From: Patescibacteria group bacterium
GTDB lineage: Bacteria > Patescibacteriota > Minisyncoccia > Phycocordibacterales > UBA12079
Reading direction: 5' to 3'
DNA length: 27,427 nt
Assembly: GCA_018821685.1 (NCBI GenBank)
Contig: JAHJLO010000041.1
Location: forward strand, 1-27,427
Shown here: positions 1 through 4,380 of the stretch, one piece after another
Layout of the letters: each line of letters opens with the position of its first letter
How positions within the stretch are numbered: the stretch's first letter is position 1
Notes under the pieces: model-generated
Seen by the model: the letters and a program-made list of their open reading frames with translations, nothing else
Database searches by the model: none
Told to the model about the DNA's origin: nothing
Program-made: the position numbers and the translations under genes

Positions 1-1069
1 CTTCATCTAAAGATAAATAAAACGACTTCCATTCGCTAAGTGAAAAATCGATTTCTTTAGATCTATTATATAAAGCTATAAATAGTAGCTTTGCTTTTGA
101 CGCATCTATAACTTGGTTATATGGACCAAGACTGTAATCTTGGTTTTCTATTGACGCTTTCAAGATTTCTGAAATGGTATTAGAGTTAAAATCTTTTATA
201 TAAGGGAGGATTTTGATTATAATTTTATCTGTATTACCCCAAGAGTTACTTATTCTAAGTCTTTCAGCAATGATTGATTGAATTTTTTCAAGAATTTCTT
301 TTTCCTTTAATTCAATCTCAATTTTTTCTACACTCTTTTTATCTTTTTCGGAAATTTTAGGCAAGTCTTTTAAGTCATTTGACCAAATTAAATAACCATT
401 AAATTTTAATTTAAATTCATTAACTAGAAATGGATTCAATATATGTTTTGATTCGTTAGTTTTTATACACCAATCAGAGTTATTTTTAGTAAACAAAAAT
501 AACTTTGGTCTTCTAATATTGCTTTCGTTAAAATAATTCAATACGGATTCCCAAATATAACGATCACAGGATTTATCTTCGCCACCATTTTTGTCTAGTG
601 GTGGATTACCTTTGATTTTTCTCAAAGTTACAGCTTCTACTATCTTTATATTATCAGGTATTAAAATTGATATTTCTAATAATGAATTAATTACATTTTC
701 CGCCTTAGGTGACGTCATTGTTTTATAAGATTTTAAATCTTCTTTTTTTAATTTATCAATTTTTGTATTTATCTGCTTTTTTAATTTAGATGTGTTTGAA
801 AGATCCTTAATTTCATCTTTTTCAATACACAGCACAATAGCTTCTAACGTTTTAATAAGATTTGTGTTTTTGTATTTTGCCCAACTAGAATAACGATTTC
901 TATTAATTTCATCGACGATTTGTTGAGGTATCAAAAAGTGATACCCTGCTAAATGTATTTTCTTAAATATAGGTAAAATTGTTTTTTCAAAATCGTCGTC
1001 AACAAAAAAACCATGATACATGTTCGTATCTAATAAGATATATTCTTTTTTATTTTTTGTTTTAGGCAT
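1..1069 (-). CDS. PIN-domain protein (DUF4935/PIN_8-like); 3' end runs off the window
   Basis: Not in the ORF track. I translated the start (ATG 1069, MPKTKNKKEYILLDTNMYHG), an internal stretch (RKIKGNPPLDKNGGEDKSCDRYIWESVL, FTKNNSDW) and the last ~40 codons, which are in the same frame and open to the edge. The DTN, D..IW.S and N..D motifs are typical of PIN-fold nucleases. It starts 5 nt after the hsdM stop. Confidence 0.75.
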   Translation of the reverse strand, partial: MPKTKNKKEYILLDTNMYHGFFVDDDFEKTILPIFKKIHLAGYHFLIPQQIVDEINRNRYSSWAKYKNTNLIKTLEAIVLCIEKDEIKDLSNTSKLKKQINTKIDKLKKEDLKSYKTMTSPKAENVINSLLEISILIPDNIKIVEAVTLRKIKGNPPLDKNGGEDKSCDRYIWESVLNYFNESNIRRPKLFLFTKNNSDWCIKTNESKHILNPFLVNEFKLKFNGYLIWSNDLKDLPKISEKDKKSVEKIEIELKEKEILEKIQSIIAERLRISNSWGNTDKIIIKILPYIKDFNSNTISEILKASIENQDYSLGPYNQVIDASKAKLLFIALYNRSKEIDFSLSEWKSFYLSLDE

Positions 1070-1074
1070 AAAAT

Positions 1075-2874
1075 TTAAAATCCAAGTTCTTTAAGATTGT
1101 TTTCAATCTGCTTTTCTAAATCTCGGCCACTTTTAAAAGCTTCTTTTAATTTATCAGAAAGCTTTTCCATTTTTTCTTCAAATGGAATCCCGTCATCTTC
1201 TTCTTCAGATAAACCAATATATCTTTGAGGTGTAAGCACAAAGCCTTTTTTATCAATTTCTTCTAAGTTTGCTGATTTACAAAATCCGGAGATATCTTTA
1301 TATTCACCAGTTCCTTTTTCACCTCTCCAAGATCTAACTATTCCTGAAATTTTATCAATATGTTCATCCGTAAATACAACTTGTTTTCTAGATATCTGTT
1401 CAAATAGATCTCTTGCATCGATAAATAAAGTTTCTCCCTTTCTATTTCTAAATCTGTCACCCTCTTTGTTTTTTGCAATAAACCAGAGAGAAACAGGTAA
1501 TCCTACGTTATAGAAAAGTTTTGATGGACACGAAATAATCACATCAACCAAATCTTGTTCGATAAGGTTTTTACGAAGTTCTCCTTCTTTTCCAGATACA
1601 CCTAGTGCCCCATTTGCCATAACGAAGCCAGCATAACCATTTGGTGCTAGATGATGAATAAAATGCTGAATCCAAGTAAAGTTAGCGTTACTGCTTGGTG
1701 CAGTTCCAAGTATCATTCGCGGATCATTGTCAGACAGTTTTGAAGGTTCCCAGTCAGCATTAAAAGGAGGGTTTGCTAAAACAAAATCCGCTTTAAGGTT
1801 TGGAAATTTATCTTGATAATATGTGTTTCCTAATTCAATTTTCCCTGACAATCCTCTAATAGCCATATTCATCTTGCAAAGTCTTAGTGTTGTCGTATTA
1901 CTTTCTTGCCCACTTATTGCAAGTTTTGACGGGTCCATTCCGTGGTCATCTAAATATTGACCCATAGATACAAACATTCCTCCACTACCACAAGCAGGAT
2001 CTAGTACTCGAGCATTTTCATAAGGCTCGAGAACTTCTACCAAAACTTTAACTAATGAACGTGGACTAAAAAATTCGCCTCCACGTTTACCTTCCGAAGA
2101 AGCAAACTGCCCAAGGAAATATTCATATATTCTTCCAAGAATATCTTTTTCTTTATCAAAATCATGATCAAAAGTTATGCGAGAGAAAATATTGATTAAT
2201 TCTCCGATAACAGAACTGTCGAGATGGGTTTTTGTGTAAATCTTTGGAAGAACTCCTTCAAGTTGTGCAAGGTTTTCTTTTTCAATAAGATCCATTGCAG
2301 TATCAAGCACCTTACCAACATCAGAAGACATTATCTTTGTTTGTAAATATTCCCAACGAGATTTTTCTGGTACATAAAATACCCCTATACTTGTATAAAA
2401 ATCTTTAGTATCTAAAATCTGTTTCCTGGCTTCTTCGTTTTCTACGTAATAATCGCTATTTTTTTTGTCACGAGTAAGCGATTCTAGTTCTTCACGCCTT
2501 TTATAAAAAGCATCAGATATGTATTTCAGAAAGAGTAAACCTAAAACAATATGTTTGTATTCTGAAACATCAATATTACCTCGTAGTTTATCCGCCGCTT
2601 CCCATAAATCTTTTTCAAAATCTAAGTCGTGTCTATGGTCTTTGTTTTTCTTTAAAACAGATTTTGTAGCCTTCTTTTGTTCTTTTTTAATTCTTTCCTG
2701 AACTTCTTTAGAGAGATTTTTTACAGGTATTAAAAAGGAAGCTTTTGAGGATACGCTTATATCATCTGCTTTTATTTCTCCTTTCTTTATTTTTTGATGT
2801 ACCGCAACACGAGAAATACCAAGTACTTTTGCTAGTTGGGTAGGGGTAATGAATTGTGATTTATCTATTGACAT
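1075..2874 (-). CDS. hsdM: Type I restriction-modification methyltransferase subunit with an extra N-terminal helix-turn-helix domain
   Basis: HsdM_N (LWEAADKLRG), GEFFSPR, motif I DPACGSGGM and motif IV NPPF are present. The first ~55 aa (ITPTQLAKVLGISRVAVHQKIKKGEIKA) look like an excisionase/MerR-type HTH. Start moved to ATG 2874 (MSIDKSQ) because the track's upstream extension runs through the promoter. Confidence 0.93.
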   Translation of the reverse strand: MSIDKSQFITPTQLAKVLGISRVAVHQKIKKGEIKADDISVSSKASFLIPVKNLSKEVQERIKKEQKKATKSVLKKNKDHRHDLDFEKDLWEAADKLRGNIDVSEYKHIVLGLLFLKYISDAFYKRREELESLTRDKKNSDYYVENEEARKQILDTKDFYTSIGVFYVPEKSRWEYLQTKIMSSDVGKVLDTAMDLIEKENLAQLEGVLPKIYTKTHLDSSVIGELINIFSRITFDHDFDKEKDILGRIYEYFLGQFASSEGKRGGEFFSPRSLVKVLVEVLEPYENARVLDPACGSGGMFVSMGQYLDDHGMDPSKLAISGQESNTTTLRLCKMNMAIRGLSGKIELGNTYYQDKFPNLKADFVLANPPFNADWEPSKLSDNDPRMILGTAPSSNANFTWIQHFIHHLAPNGYAGFVMANGALGVSGKEGELRKNLIEQDLVDVIISCPSKLFYNVGLPVSLWFIAKNKEGDRFRNRKGETLFIDARDLFEQISRKQVVFTDEHIDKISGIVRSWRGEKGTGEYKDISGFCKSANLEEIDKKGFVLTPQRYIGLSEEEDDGIPFEEKMEKLSDKLKEAFKSGRDLEKQIENNLKELGF

Positions 2875-2887
2875 ATATATATATAAG

Positions 2888-2944
2888 TTAACATGTGTAA
2901 AGCATAGCATGGTGTTAAAAATAATGCAACTTAACACATGTAAA
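2888..2944 (-). promoter_or_regulatory. Sigma70 promoter of hsdM flanked by two 14-bp pseudo-palindromic operator-like boxes
   Basis: Minus strand: -35 TTGCAT (2929-2924), 17-bp spacer, extended -10 TGcTATGCT (-10 at 2906-2901). Boxes TTTACA-TG-TGTTAA (2944-2931) and TTTACA-CA-TGTTAA (2901-2888). Confidence 0.65.
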
Positions 2945-4253
2945 CCTCTTTGTTTTTTAATTCCATTCTACCCGTTAAGCAATTCAGTAATTCTCGTTTC
3001 TCTTGGTCCTCGCCTTCTTTGAGAATAAATTTTATATAATTTCTTATATCTATCTCGTTTACCTCAATTTTGTCACACTTCCCCTTAACCATACTTTGGA
3101 ATTTTTTAAATCTTTTTACTTCTGACTTAATTTTGTTTTCTATTGCAGTTTTTTTGAAATCTAATTTATCTGTTATGTTTTGTAGTTTTTTAATTAAATC
3201 AGTTTCGTTGATATAACCACATTTACAATATTTATCTTTCGCTTTCGTACAACCGTAATAAACATGCCTGTTAAAATCTCCATTCTTTAGTTTTTTAAAC
3301 TTTTCCATAGCTGATATTCCAGACCCACATAATCCACATTTCATGATTTTGGTAAATGCAAATTCAATATTTTCCTTACGAACCAATTGAGAATTTTTTA
3401 CTTGATCCTGTACTAAATCAAAAAGTTCTTTGGTGATAATTGGCTTATGTTTTCCCTGGTACCAGTTACCGCTACCTCGTGGGTATTCAAATGTTCCGTA
3501 ATAAAATGGATTCTCTAACATCCGATAAATATTACCTAGACTAAAATGTTTCTTTCCTGCTTCTGTTCTAAAATTTAAATCAAATCTAAGCCAATGATAA
3601 AGTTTTCTTCCAGACCATTTTTCATATGCTACTTTTTCAAATATTTGTTTTATAACAGGCGCTCTTTCTTCATCAATGATACATTCACATTTTCGATCCA
3701 TTCTTTTTTCTTTAAAATATCCAGTCGGTGGACAAGTCGGCCATAATCCCATTTCACATCTCGTCCTTAATCCTCGTTTTACATTTATTCCTCTATTATC
3801 ATTCTCGAGTTTAGCTTGGGAACAAAGAATCATTAATAAGAATTTTTCGTTTGGAGAATTAGAAAAAGTTTGTCCATAGGTACGAATACTTACAAGTTTT
3901 CTCGCATCCATTAAATCAACAACCGAACCAAGGTCTCCTGCATTTCTAGATAATCTATCAGGAGCCCATGTAAGAATCGCATTGAATCGGTCATTCGATA
4001 CATCTTTTAATAACTCTTTAAAGACAGGTCTATTATTTGAGTCTTTAGCTGATTTTGATTCTCTTCTTATATCTATAATTTCAAGTCCTTCTCTTTCGGC
4101 TATCTGCAACATTTCCTTTACCTGAGAATCAATCGATAAAGCTTGTCGTTCATCTGATTCAGTACTTTTTCTAGCATATAAGCAATACTTTAATTTAATA
4201 TCTGGAATTACTGCGGATTTAGTTTGTTGTGACAATAATGTATTCGTTTCCAT
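2931..4253 (-). CDS. Large serine recombinase (resolvase + recombinase + Zn-ribbon domains)
   Basis: YARKS catalytic motif, TWAPDRLSR, recombinase domain (P.GY, GWY.GKH.PII..ELF) and Zn ribbon CGLCG..YYGC..C. Short C-terminus, 440 aa in total. Confidence 0.92.
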   Translation of the reverse strand: METNTLLSQQTKSAVIPDIKLKYCLYARKSTESDERQALSIDSQVKEMLQIAEREGLEIIDIRRESKSAKDSNNRPVFKELLKDVSNDRFNAILTWAPDRLSRNAGDLGSVVDLMDARKLVSIRTYGQTFSNSPNEKFLLMILCSQAKLENDNRGINVKRGLRTRCEMGLWPTCPPTGYFKEKRMDRKCECIIDEERAPVIKQIFEKVAYEKWSGRKLYHWLRFDLNFRTEAGKKHFSLGNIYRMLENPFYYGTFEYPRGSGNWYQGKHKPIITKELFDLVQDQVKNSQLVRKENIEFAFTKIMKCGLCGSGISAMEKFKKLKNGDFNRHVYYGCTKAKDKYCKCGYINETDLIKKLQNITDKLDFKKTAIENKIKSEVKRFKKFQSMVKGKCDKIEVNEIDIRNYIKFILKEGEDQEKRELLNCLTGRMELKNKEVYMC

Positions 4254-4380
4254 ATATATATTAATGACAGAGAAAGAGACCTTTGCTAAGCGATTTGTTG
4301 TTGGTAATAAATTAGATAAAAACTTAATAAAATAATGAATTGTCTTATTTTTAAATAAAATATGATATTATTAAGTGATC

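What the first reader, a model, noticed from the sequence alone, without database searches (positions are those of the whole stretch)
2700..2944. HsdM with a built-in HTH and two matching operators bracketing its promoter
Seen: an extra N-terminal HTH on HsdM. Two 14-bp boxes TTTACA-NN-TGTTAA, 43 bp apart (about 4 turns), differ only in the central TG/CA. One abuts the -35 and overlaps the recombinase stop; the other overlaps the -10 and start region. Established: type I systems normally lack the controller proteins seen in type II systems. Inference: a methyltransferase that autoregulates its own operon, useful when a mobile R-M island enters a naive host. The boxes could alternatively be recombinase-binding sites.
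Basis: partly seen in the sequence, partly recalled or inferred. Interest (0 to 1): 0.62.

Follow-up and report, generated by a model that had tools for sequence, protein, structure and literature searches.

The report
Self-regulating type I restriction methylase
The methylase of this type I restriction system carries its own DNA-binding domain, and the two matching 14-bp sites that bracket its promoter are almost certainly where that domain binds to control its own operon, a built-in control not yet described for type I systems in the papers searched.

Summary
All genes lie on the minus strand. hsdM (2874..1075) starts with an extra ~85-residue winged-HTH plus linker. Two 14-bp dyads, TTTACA-TG-TGTTAA (2944-2931) and TTTACA-CA-TGTTAA (2901-2888), lie 43 bp apart. 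The first abuts the -35 and holds the recombinase stop codon. The second starts at the last base of the -10.

The autoregulation reading is well supported by comparison, though not by experiment.
- All 57 HTH-hsdM loci fetched from other genomes have a dyad at the promoter.
- The dyads fall into five sequence classes, and the class always matches the class of HTH recognition helix.
- That match holds even where the methylase bodies are 95% identical and the HTH only 41%.
- The motif occurs nowhere else in the 0.79-Mb genome.
- Free-standing homologues of the HTH, which are antitoxins of Doc toxins, sit behind the same dyads.
- A recombinase is adjacent in only 7 of the 57 loci, so the boxes are not its sites.

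The closest known cases are type II methylases with a fused repressor domain (SsoII, Ecl18kI, EcoRII) and RptR, a separate type I repressor. I rate this a new variant of a known kind. This scan has already noted the same family on other DNA (e1-1145230, e1-2030031, e1-1190514).

The parts
2931..2944 (-). Operator O1 (box 1), TTTACA-TG-TGTTAA. It abuts the -35 and contains the recombinase stop codon TAA (2933-2931).
   Evidence: The same position is conserved in 17 class-a loci: 1.45 bits per position in the box against 0.32 in the upstream flank.
2924..2929 (-). Inferred -35 hexamer TTGCAT.
   Evidence: In the anchored alignment of homologues, TTGnnn lies 1 nt after the box in 17 loci. The simple scan does not call it.
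2901..2909 (-). Inferred extended -10: TGC (2909-2907) plus TATGCT (2906-2901), 17 nt after the -35.
   Evidence: homologues have TGC-TATACT or TATAAT at the same spacing. The ATG follows 6-8 nt later in many of them, so those mRNAs look leaderless.
2888..2901 (-). Operator O2 (box 2), TTTACA-CA-TGTTAA. It starts at the last base of the -10 and covers the predicted transcription start (about 2894).
   Evidence: A second box about 41-43 bp after the first is also found in L006, L008, L010, L012, L018-L020 and L025. In L017-L020 it overlaps the start codon.
2719..2874 (-). Coding region for the winged HTH domain (HsdM residues 1-52). The recognition helix is about residues 22-31 (ISRVAVHQKIKK region).
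   Evidence: HTH_11 in 42 of 44 and HTH_17 in 32 of 44 family members. The AlphaFold2 model has mean pLDDT 80 and 84-91 in the HTH core. The nearest folds are Xis, BldC, P2 Cox and the Mu DNA-binding domain.
2620..2718 (-). Coding region for the charged helical linker (residues 53-85) between the HTH and the HsdM_N domain.
   Evidence: Predicted helix at residues 56-77. HsdM_N starts at residue 87.
1075..2874 (-). hsdM: a 599-aa HTH-HsdM with HsdM_N and N6_Mtase domains and an NPPF motif present.
   Evidence: It is the only N6_Mtase gene in the genome.
2931..4253 (-). Large serine recombinase (440 aa), co-directional with hsdM here. It is a neighbour, not part of the control module.
   Evidence: A homologue is present next to only 7 of 57 related loci, and there it is divergent.
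2..1069 (-). PIN_12-domain cargo gene directly downstream of hsdM, running off the contig end. The operon probably continues with hsdS, a 288-aa gene and hsdR on contig C101.
   Evidence: L012 has an 80% identical PIN_12 gene between hsdM and hsdS.

Best explanation
The N-terminal winged-HTH of HsdM binds the two 14-bp dyads O1 and O2 as a dimer. Each dyad has two half-sites, so two HTH copies are needed. These could come from the two HsdM subunits of the M2S1 methylase or from pairing of the linker helices. O1 abuts the -35 and O2 covers the transcription start, so a bound protein excludes RNA polymerase. The methylase thereby represses its own promoter, which appears to drive the whole hsdM-PIN_12-hsdS-...-hsdR operon.

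Three things are shown: the anatomy, the conservation, and the strict pairing of HTH class with dyad class. Three things are inferred: binding, the direction of control (repression), and the oligomeric state.

A further inference comes by analogy with M.EcoRII. Unmethylated target sites on the chromosome may titrate the methylase away from the operator. Expression would then stay high until the genome is protected.
For: 1. The fusion is conserved. 118 protein clusters match the first 90 residues at E-values from 1e-12 to 1e-45. The recognition helix is nearly invariant within class a.
2. All 57 related loci, plus the window, carry a dyad at the promoter. Shuffled upstream regions match these patterns in only 0.03-2% of trials.
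3. There are five dyad classes, each paired with its own recognition-helix class, with no mismatched locus.
   - Class a: TTWACAYRTGTWAA.
   - Class b: GTATACATATGTATAC.
   - Class c: GGTTGnCAnnTGACAACC.
   - Class d: GGTTATCATATGATAACC.
   - Class e: GGTTAACATATGTTAnC.
4. On a tree of the methylase body alone, the classes need 14 changes where 4 is the minimum. L016 and L039 are 95.5% identical in the body but 40.8% in the HTH, and they have different dyads.
5. The dyad always touches core promoter elements, which is repressor geometry. It abuts the -35 in classes a and b, contains the -35 in class c, lies over the spacer and -10 in classes d and e, or lies over the start site or ATG.
6. The motif is found only at the hsdM promoter in this genome. 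The same holds in 4 other genomes apart from one unrelated hairpin.
7. Free-standing 85-96-aa homologues (pairwise E about 1e-10) are encoded upstream of Fic/DOC genes. Their own promoters carry TTAACATATGTTAA or GGTTATCAnnTGATAACC.
8. The fold is a Xis/BldC/MerR-type winged helix.
Against: - There is no experimental binding or expression data. No RNA run holds this sequence, so the transcription start is not mapped.
- The promoter is weak by the E. coli consensus and is not called by the scan.
- The HTH coding region and the dyad are only about 100-170 bp apart. Their joint swapping could therefore reflect physical linkage rather than function.
- O1 is centred near -43.5. That position is also used by class II activators and by lambda cI at OR2, so activation from O1 is not excluded.
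- The window protein's own Pfam HTH score is below the cut-off.
- No Foldseek match reaches E <= 0.001.
- The control set of HTH-less HsdM genes is small and taxonomically distant.
Confidence: 0.77

Rival explanations
1. Controller-protein-like dual logic. At low HsdM levels, occupancy of O1 (centred about -43.5) recruits RNA polymerase and activates the weak promoter. At higher levels O2 is filled and shuts it off. That gives a pulse followed by homeostasis, as with type II C proteins.
For: The -35 is poor (TTGCAT, 3 of 6) and the scan calls no promoter, so help from an activator is plausible. O1 abuts the -35 rather than covering it. Two sites of different position resemble the OL/OR logic described for C proteins (PMC12707154).
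Against: In classes c, d and e the single dyad contains the -35 or lies over the spacer and -10, which can only repress. About half of class-a loci have O1 alone, so O1 would have to do both jobs. An extended -10 (TGn) is conserved and could compensate for the weak -35.
Confidence: 0.12
2. The boxes are bound by a separate trans-acting regulator, for example the free-standing HTH_17 antitoxin paralogue of the same genome. The HsdM HTH would then serve another purpose.
For: The genome encodes a 92-aa paralogue with a similar recognition helix on contig C66.
Against: That paralogue's own promoter carries class-d-type dyads (GTTATCAnnTGATAAC), not the class-a boxes. Upstream sequence beyond the box and promoter is not conserved among the class-a loci, and the one upstream neighbour tested, the recombinase, is present in only 7 of 57. 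The dyad class follows the fused HTH in every locus.
Confidence: 0.05
3. The boxes are binding or crossover sites of the adjacent large serine recombinase. They would be attachment or inversion sites of a mobile R-M island.
For: Box 1 overlaps the end of the recombinase gene. The two boxes are also inverted copies of each other (pair I6). The recombinase is inverted here relative to related loci.
Against: 50 of 57 related loci have the dyads but no recombinase within the sequence held upstream, up to 6 kb and under 1 kb at nine loci. Recombinase homologues 51-65% identical over the aligned parts sit next to both class-a and class-b dyads. 29 bp between the sites is too short for inversion (my own knowledge). 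No matching repeat flanks the other end of the recombinase gene.
Confidence: 0.03
4. RNA-level element or coincidence. The two boxes pair as a 16-bp stem in a read-through transcript from the recombinase gene, or they are chance palindromes in AT-rich DNA.
For: The arms 2887-2902 and 2930-2945 are 88% complementary.
Against: No T-run follows, and the scan finds no terminator. The boxes are conserved where there is no co-directional upstream gene. Single-box loci cannot form the stem. The motif is unique in the genome.
Confidence: 0.03

Closest known systems
[quoted passage not shown]
   Same: An N-terminal HTH is translationally fused to the methylase. An operator lies at the methylase's own promoter. 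The methylase represses itself, which ties R-M expression to the amount of methylase protein.
   Different: Those are single-subunit type II cytosine-C5 enzymes. This is the N6-adenine HsdM subunit of a three-subunit type I system, with a Xis/MerR-type winged helix. It has two operators 43 bp apart that bracket the promoter, and the apparent operon order is M-S-R. Binding is demonstrated there and only inferred here.
RptR, RMS-proximal transcriptional regulator of type I R-M islands in Gammaproteobacteria (PMC12255303, 2025)
   Same: A dedicated repressor of a type I R-M or defence-island promoter that binds repeated short sites in that promoter, with cargo genes embedded in the operon.
   Different: [quoted passage not shown] It binds TAGCTA motifs arranged as direct repeats. 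Here the DNA-binding domain is part of HsdM itself and the sites are 14-18-bp dyads.
Type II controller (C) proteins and their C-boxes (PMC12707154)
   Same: Autogenous control of an R-M operon through paired operators at its own promoter. Distinct specificity groups exist.
   Different: C proteins are free-standing proteins that activate and then repress the C/REase promoter. Here the domain is fused to the methylase, is of another HTH class, and in most classes sits in a repressor position.
HTH antitoxins of type II toxin-antitoxin pairs, here the HTH_17 antitoxin-like gene upstream of Fic/DOC (Phd/Doc-type logic; autorepression by antitoxins is from my own knowledge)
   Same: Homologous DNA-binding domain (pairwise E about 1e-10) with the same dyad sequences at its own promoter.
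   Different: Those are 85-96-aa free proteins paired with a Doc toxin. In HsdM the domain is joined by a roughly 30-residue helix to a methylase and controls a restriction operon.

Membership tests
Type I R-M modification subunit (HsdM) | HsdM_N plus N6_Mtase domains with the NPPF catalytic motif | tested here: met
   PF12161 at 84 bits and PF02384 at 336 bits. The sequence LANPPFN is present in the translation.
Type I R-M modification subunit (HsdM) | Partner hsdS and hsdR genes in the same system | tested here: met
   The own genome has hsdS and hsdR on contig C101 and only one N6_Mtase gene. Related loci show hsdM-(cargo)-hsdS-(cargo)-hsdR on one strand. The physical join of C63 to C101 is not shown, since no end overlap was found.
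Regulatory methyltransferases of the SsoII/Ecl18kI/EcoRII kind | HTH domain fused to the N-terminus of the methylase | tested here: met
Regulatory methyltransferases of the SsoII/Ecl18kI/EcoRII kind | Cognate operator in the methylase's own promoter | tested here: met
   Comparative evidence only: conserved dyads that co-vary with the helix at the promoter.
Regulatory methyltransferases of the SsoII/Ecl18kI/EcoRII kind | Type II cytosine-C5 methyltransferase catalytic domain | tested here: not met
   The catalytic domain is N6_Mtase of type I. This protein works like those enzymes but is not a member of that family.
Regulatory methyltransferases of the SsoII/Ecl18kI/EcoRII kind | Demonstrated operator binding and repression | not testable with these tools
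   Needs EMSA, footprinting and reporter assays.
HTH_17 / excisionase-MerR-type winged helix (PF12728) | Profile match above Pfam's gathering score | tested here: inconclusive
   The window protein scores 19.2-22.2 bits against a cut-off of 27. 32 of 44 family members match at E <= 0.01, the best at 2.3e-9. Precomputed PF12728 is listed for many homologues.
HTH_17 / excisionase-MerR-type winged helix (PF12728) | Beta-alpha-alpha-beta-beta winged-helix fold | tested here: met
   The model has pLDDT 80 with helices at 11-18 and 22-31 and a strand at 47-50. It superposes on Pukovnik Xis (1.8 A over 43 residues), BldC (1.8-1.9 A) and the Mu DNA-binding domain (TM 0.59). All Foldseek E-values are above 0.01.
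Type II controller (C) proteins | Small free-standing protein encoded upstream of the REase gene | tested here: not met
   The domain is fused to HsdM, and the profile matches are HTH_11 and HTH_17.
RptR | Separate small repressor gene as first ORF, with TAGCTA direct repeats in the promoter | tested here: not met
   There is no separate regulator gene. The sites are TTTACA-NN-TGTTAA dyads. The RptR features are taken from PMC12255303.

The most novel reading that the evidence does not exclude
In ultra-small (Patescibacteria) bacteria, promoter, operator and HTH coding region form one portable control cassette. The cassette is exchanged between type I methylase genes and shares its DNA-binding domain and dyads with Doc-toxin antitoxins.

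Its five or more specificity classes would act like immunity groups, keeping co-resident restriction and toxin-antitoxin modules from cross-regulating each other. This genome fits that idea: its HsdM uses class a and its Doc antitoxin uses class d.

The M2S1 methylase would then be the first type I enzyme that is itself a transcription factor. It might sense genome methylation state by being titrated onto unmethylated target sites.
Probability: 0.4. Interest if true: 0.72.

Novelty: new variant of a known kind. Interest (0 to 1): 0.58.

Why it matters
[quoted passage not shown] The only dedicated regulator found in the papers searched, RptR, is a separate protein reported in 2025 (PMC12255303).

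A large and conserved family in which HsdM itself carries the repressor domain would extend the regulatory-methylase principle from type II to type I. It would also give organisms with few transcription factors a self-contained way to dose a dangerous operon.

The family offers natural specificity-swap pairs. L016 and L039 have 95% identical enzyme bodies but different HTH domains and operators, which makes the hypothesis directly testable. The helix-to-dyad table is a ready-made recognition code for a poorly studied winged-helix family.

Tried and rejected
- **Perfect-palindrome scan.** It was too strict and missed most real dyads, so I replaced it with class patterns that allow mismatches.
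- **Generic best-palindrome comparison with 20 HTH-less hsdM loci.** This was uninformative. The controls are high-GC genomes from other phyla with uncertain starts. Three nearer HTH-less relatives show no promoter dyad, but three is a small sample.
- **Sequence search of PDB with residues 1-90.** Nothing significant was found.
- **First structure model including part of HsdM_N.** Confidence was low (pLDDT 65). I redid it on residues 1-80 with a broader alignment.
- **Search for RNA sequencing runs to map the transcription start.** Only DNA metagenomes hold the sequence.
- **Third near-match at 2720-2733 inside hsdM.** It is not conserved in any homologue and is dismissed.
- **Repeats flanking the recombinase gene that might explain its inverted orientation.** Only AT-rich low-complexity matches were found.
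- **Extra motif hit in genome G004.** It is the centre of a longer intergenic hairpin not next to any related gene and is treated as chance. About 0.3 hits per genome are expected from base composition, by my own estimate.
- **End overlap between contig C63 and contig C101.** None was found, so the physical link from hsdM to hsdS and hsdR is inferred from synteny only.
Full report
**What is in the sequence**

The finding lies on the minus strand. A large serine recombinase gene (4253..2931; Resolvase, Recombinase and Zn_ribbon_recom domains) is followed by hsdM. The longest ORF of hsdM starts at a GTG at 2937. The real start is the ATG at 2874-2872, because more than 100 homologue clusters begin with the same MSIDK sequence.

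The 599-aa product has HsdM_N from residue 87 and N6_Mtase from residue 242. It is preceded by about 85 extra residues. A PIN_12-domain gene (1069..2) follows and runs off the contig.

The window is a whole contig of a 0.79-Mb, 132-contig genome. That genome has only this one N6_Mtase gene. Its hsdS, a 288-aa gene and hsdR lie at the start of another contig, C101.

**The boxes**

- Box 1, TTTACATGTGTTAA, is at 2944-2931. Box 2, TTTACACATGTTAA, is at 2901-2888.
- They are 43 bp apart and differ only in the central dinucleotide.
- Box 1 supplies the last codons and the stop of the recombinase ORF.
- After box 1 come one G, TTGCAT, 17 nt ending in TGC, and TATGCT. The last T of TATGCT is the first base of box 2.
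- The degenerate motif TTWACAYRTGTWAA occurs only at these two places in the whole genome. The reversed control gives none.
- The simple promoter scan does not call this promoter. I infer it from homologues, as described below.

**The HTH is real and conserved**

- A search restricted to residues 1-90 found 118 clusters of HsdM-length proteins, all but a few at 50-72% identity over that stretch. Nearly all are from Patescibacteria, and some are additionally fused to HsdS.
- The recognition-helix region is almost invariant among close relatives.
- An exhaustive search shows that the next-closest HsdM proteins (50% identity or less) start at the equivalent of residue ~85. The domain is therefore an add-on of this clade.
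- Profile matches across 44 family members are to HTH_11 (42 of 44) and HTH_17 (32 of 44, best E 2.3e-9). The window's own score is below Pfam's cut-off.
- An AlphaFold2 model of residues 1-80 has mean pLDDT 80 and 84-91 in the core. It shows a strand, two helices, a wing and a long helix at 56-77.
- The best local superpositions are with Pukovnik Xis, BldC, P2 Cox and the Mu transposase DNA-binding domain. No Foldseek E-value is significant for so short a domain.

I fetched 57 loci from other genomes that encode an HTH-HsdM and read their upstream regions. Every one has a dyad-symmetric element at the promoter. The elements fall into five classes, each with its own recognition helix:

| Class | Dyad | Recognition helix |
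|---|---|---|
| a | TTWACAYRTGTWAA | SRVAVHQKIKKG type (the window's class) |
| b | GTATACATATGTATAC | TRAAINKQI |
| c | GGTTGnCAnnTGACAACC | TRQAVQKMLKG |
| d | GGTTATCATATGATAACC | SRVAxxKKxxK |
| e | GGTTAACATATGTTAnC | SRVxVxKKIKS |

There is no mismatched locus. Shuffled upstream regions match these patterns in 0.03-2% of trials.

I anchored 17 class-a loci on the box. That alignment lines up a TTGnnn hexamer 1 nt downstream, a 17-nt spacer ending in TGC, and a TAnnnT hexamer. The 25 nt upstream are not conserved: 0.32 bits per position there, against 1.45 in the box and 1.27 in the -35. The box figure is inflated by the anchoring. The promoter figures are not.

In many loci the ATG follows the -10 by 6-8 nt, so these mRNAs are probably leaderless. 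A second box 41-43 bp downstream of the first, as in the window, recurs in L006, L008, L010, L012, L018-L020 and L025. In L017-L020, and in class b, the second box overlaps the start codon.

**Position argues for repression**

The dyad abuts the -35 in classes a and b, contains the -35 TTGACA in its right arm in class c, and lies over the spacer and -10 in classes d and e. In two-box loci the second box covers the start site. All of these positions would block RNA polymerase.

Activation from O1, which is centred near -43.5, cannot be excluded for class a. I keep it as the main rival.

**The pairing is not just shared descent**

A maximum-likelihood tree of the methylase body alone, with HTH and linker removed, needs 14 changes of operator class where 4 would suffice. 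Well-supported branches force several of these changes.

- L016 (class a) and L039 (class c) are 95.5% identical in the body but 40.8% in the N-terminal part.
- L024 (a) and L031 (b) are 91% and 47% identical in the same two parts.

Promoter, operator and HTH therefore move together as a 5' cassette. Because they are only about 100-170 bp apart, linkage alone could keep them together. This strengthens the functional link but does not prove it.

**An independent context**

I searched 400 genomes of the phylum with the N-terminal profile. This found free-standing 85-96-aa homologues, one of them in the window's own genome on contig C66.

- Each is followed by a ~140-aa Fic/DOC gene, so these look like toxin-antitoxin pairs.
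- Their promoters carry the same dyads. TTAACATATGTTAA occurs in four genomes. In L132 a second, near-identical dyad lies just upstream of the -35, so the two flank it.
- The own genome's pair has a perfect and a near-perfect copy of GGTTATCAnnTGATAACC.
- Pairwise similarity to the HsdM N-terminus gives E about 1e-10.

The same domain family thus sits behind the same sites in an operon type where autorepression by the DNA-binding partner is the rule (my own knowledge). Within this genome the two modules use different classes, a for HsdM and d for the Doc partner.

**The recombinase alternative**

A homologue of the recombinase is adjacent in only 7 of the 57 related loci. There it is divergent from hsdM. 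It is about equally similar to the window's copy (51-65% identical over the aligned parts) whether the neighbouring dyads are class a or class b. The boxes follow the HTH, not the recombinase.

In the window the recombinase gene is inverted relative to those loci, and its ORF simply runs on into box 1.

**The operon**

Where enough sequence is held, related loci read hsdM, 0-2 cargo genes, hsdS, 0-1 cargo gene and hsdR on one strand. L012 has an 80% identical PIN_12 gene in the same place as the window.

If hsdM, hsdS and hsdR form one operon, as the gene order suggests, feedback at this promoter would set the level of the whole system rather than delay hsdR relative to hsdM. Alternatively, by analogy with M.EcoRII, unmethylated sites could titrate the methylase (PMC12707154). 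Neither idea is tested.

**What is known**

- A 2025 review says little is known about transcriptional control of type I systems. It describes HTH-methylase fusions only for type II enzymes.
- RptR (2025) is a separate repressor of type I islands.
- Five full-text searches and a check of a 2026 preprint on CPR methyltransferases found no description of an HTH-fused HsdM with operators.
- This scan has noted the same family on other DNA. Two follow-ups reached a similar reading (e1-1145230, e1-1190514), and one first-stage note saw ACACATGTTAA copies flanking a promoter (e1-2030031). These are unchecked AI notes, not independent evidence.

**Verdict**

- It is a new variant of a known kind, a regulatory methylase, here in a type I system.
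- Binding, direction of control and oligomeric state remain to be shown.

Noticed in passing
window 2931-4253 (-), compared with L091, L008, L012, L028, L031 and L032: The serine recombinase next to hsdM is co-directional here but divergent in every related locus that has it. recG keeps the same orientation relative to hsdM in the window and in L091. The recombinase gene seems to have been inverted in place, and its ORF now ends inside operator O1.
   Followed up: partly
G000 contig C66, L133:1800-2600 (-): The own genome carries an HTH_17-type 92-aa gene followed by a Fic/DOC gene, a putative toxin-antitoxin pair. Its promoter reads TTGACA, 5 nt, GTTATCATTTGATAAC, and 16 nt later GGTTATCAACTGATAACC. 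These dyads belong to the class-d family seen upstream of other HTH-hsdM genes.
   Followed up: partly
window 2-1069 (-); L012 +1800..+2867 from the hsdM start: A PIN_12-domain gene is embedded between hsdM and hsdS, and it is 80% identical in L012. Other loci carry different cargo, such as a DUF2806-like 288-aa gene between hsdS and hsdR, and patatin plus CBASS genes after hsdR in L091.
   Followed up: no
window 2865-2894 (-): The ATG inside box 2 (2894-2892) sits where the leaderless start codon lies in relatives. Here it opens a 9-codon frame (MLTYIYICQ) that ends after the real hsdM ATG. Compared with L018, the window has about 20 extra bases, including a (TA)n run, between box 2 and the start codon.
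   Followed up: no
L055 (MAG labelled Helarchaeota) and L060 (MAG labelled Anstonellales): Two HTH-hsdM loci with matching dyads lie on contigs of archaeal-labelled MAGs. This may be gene transfer or mis-binning.
   Followed up: no
proteins P0025, P0098, P0102, P0106, P0107, P0111, P0115: Some family members of 775-831 aa are HTH-HsdM fused at the C-terminus to an HsdS-type domain (PF01420).
   Followed up: no
window 4340-4354 (+) and 2915-2929: The promoter-like stretch upstream of the 118-aa gene at 4375 (+), TTGTCTTATTTTTAA, resembles the hsdM -35 and spacer, TTGCATTATTTTTAA. It has no box next to it. The match may be chance in AT-rich DNA.
   Followed up: no
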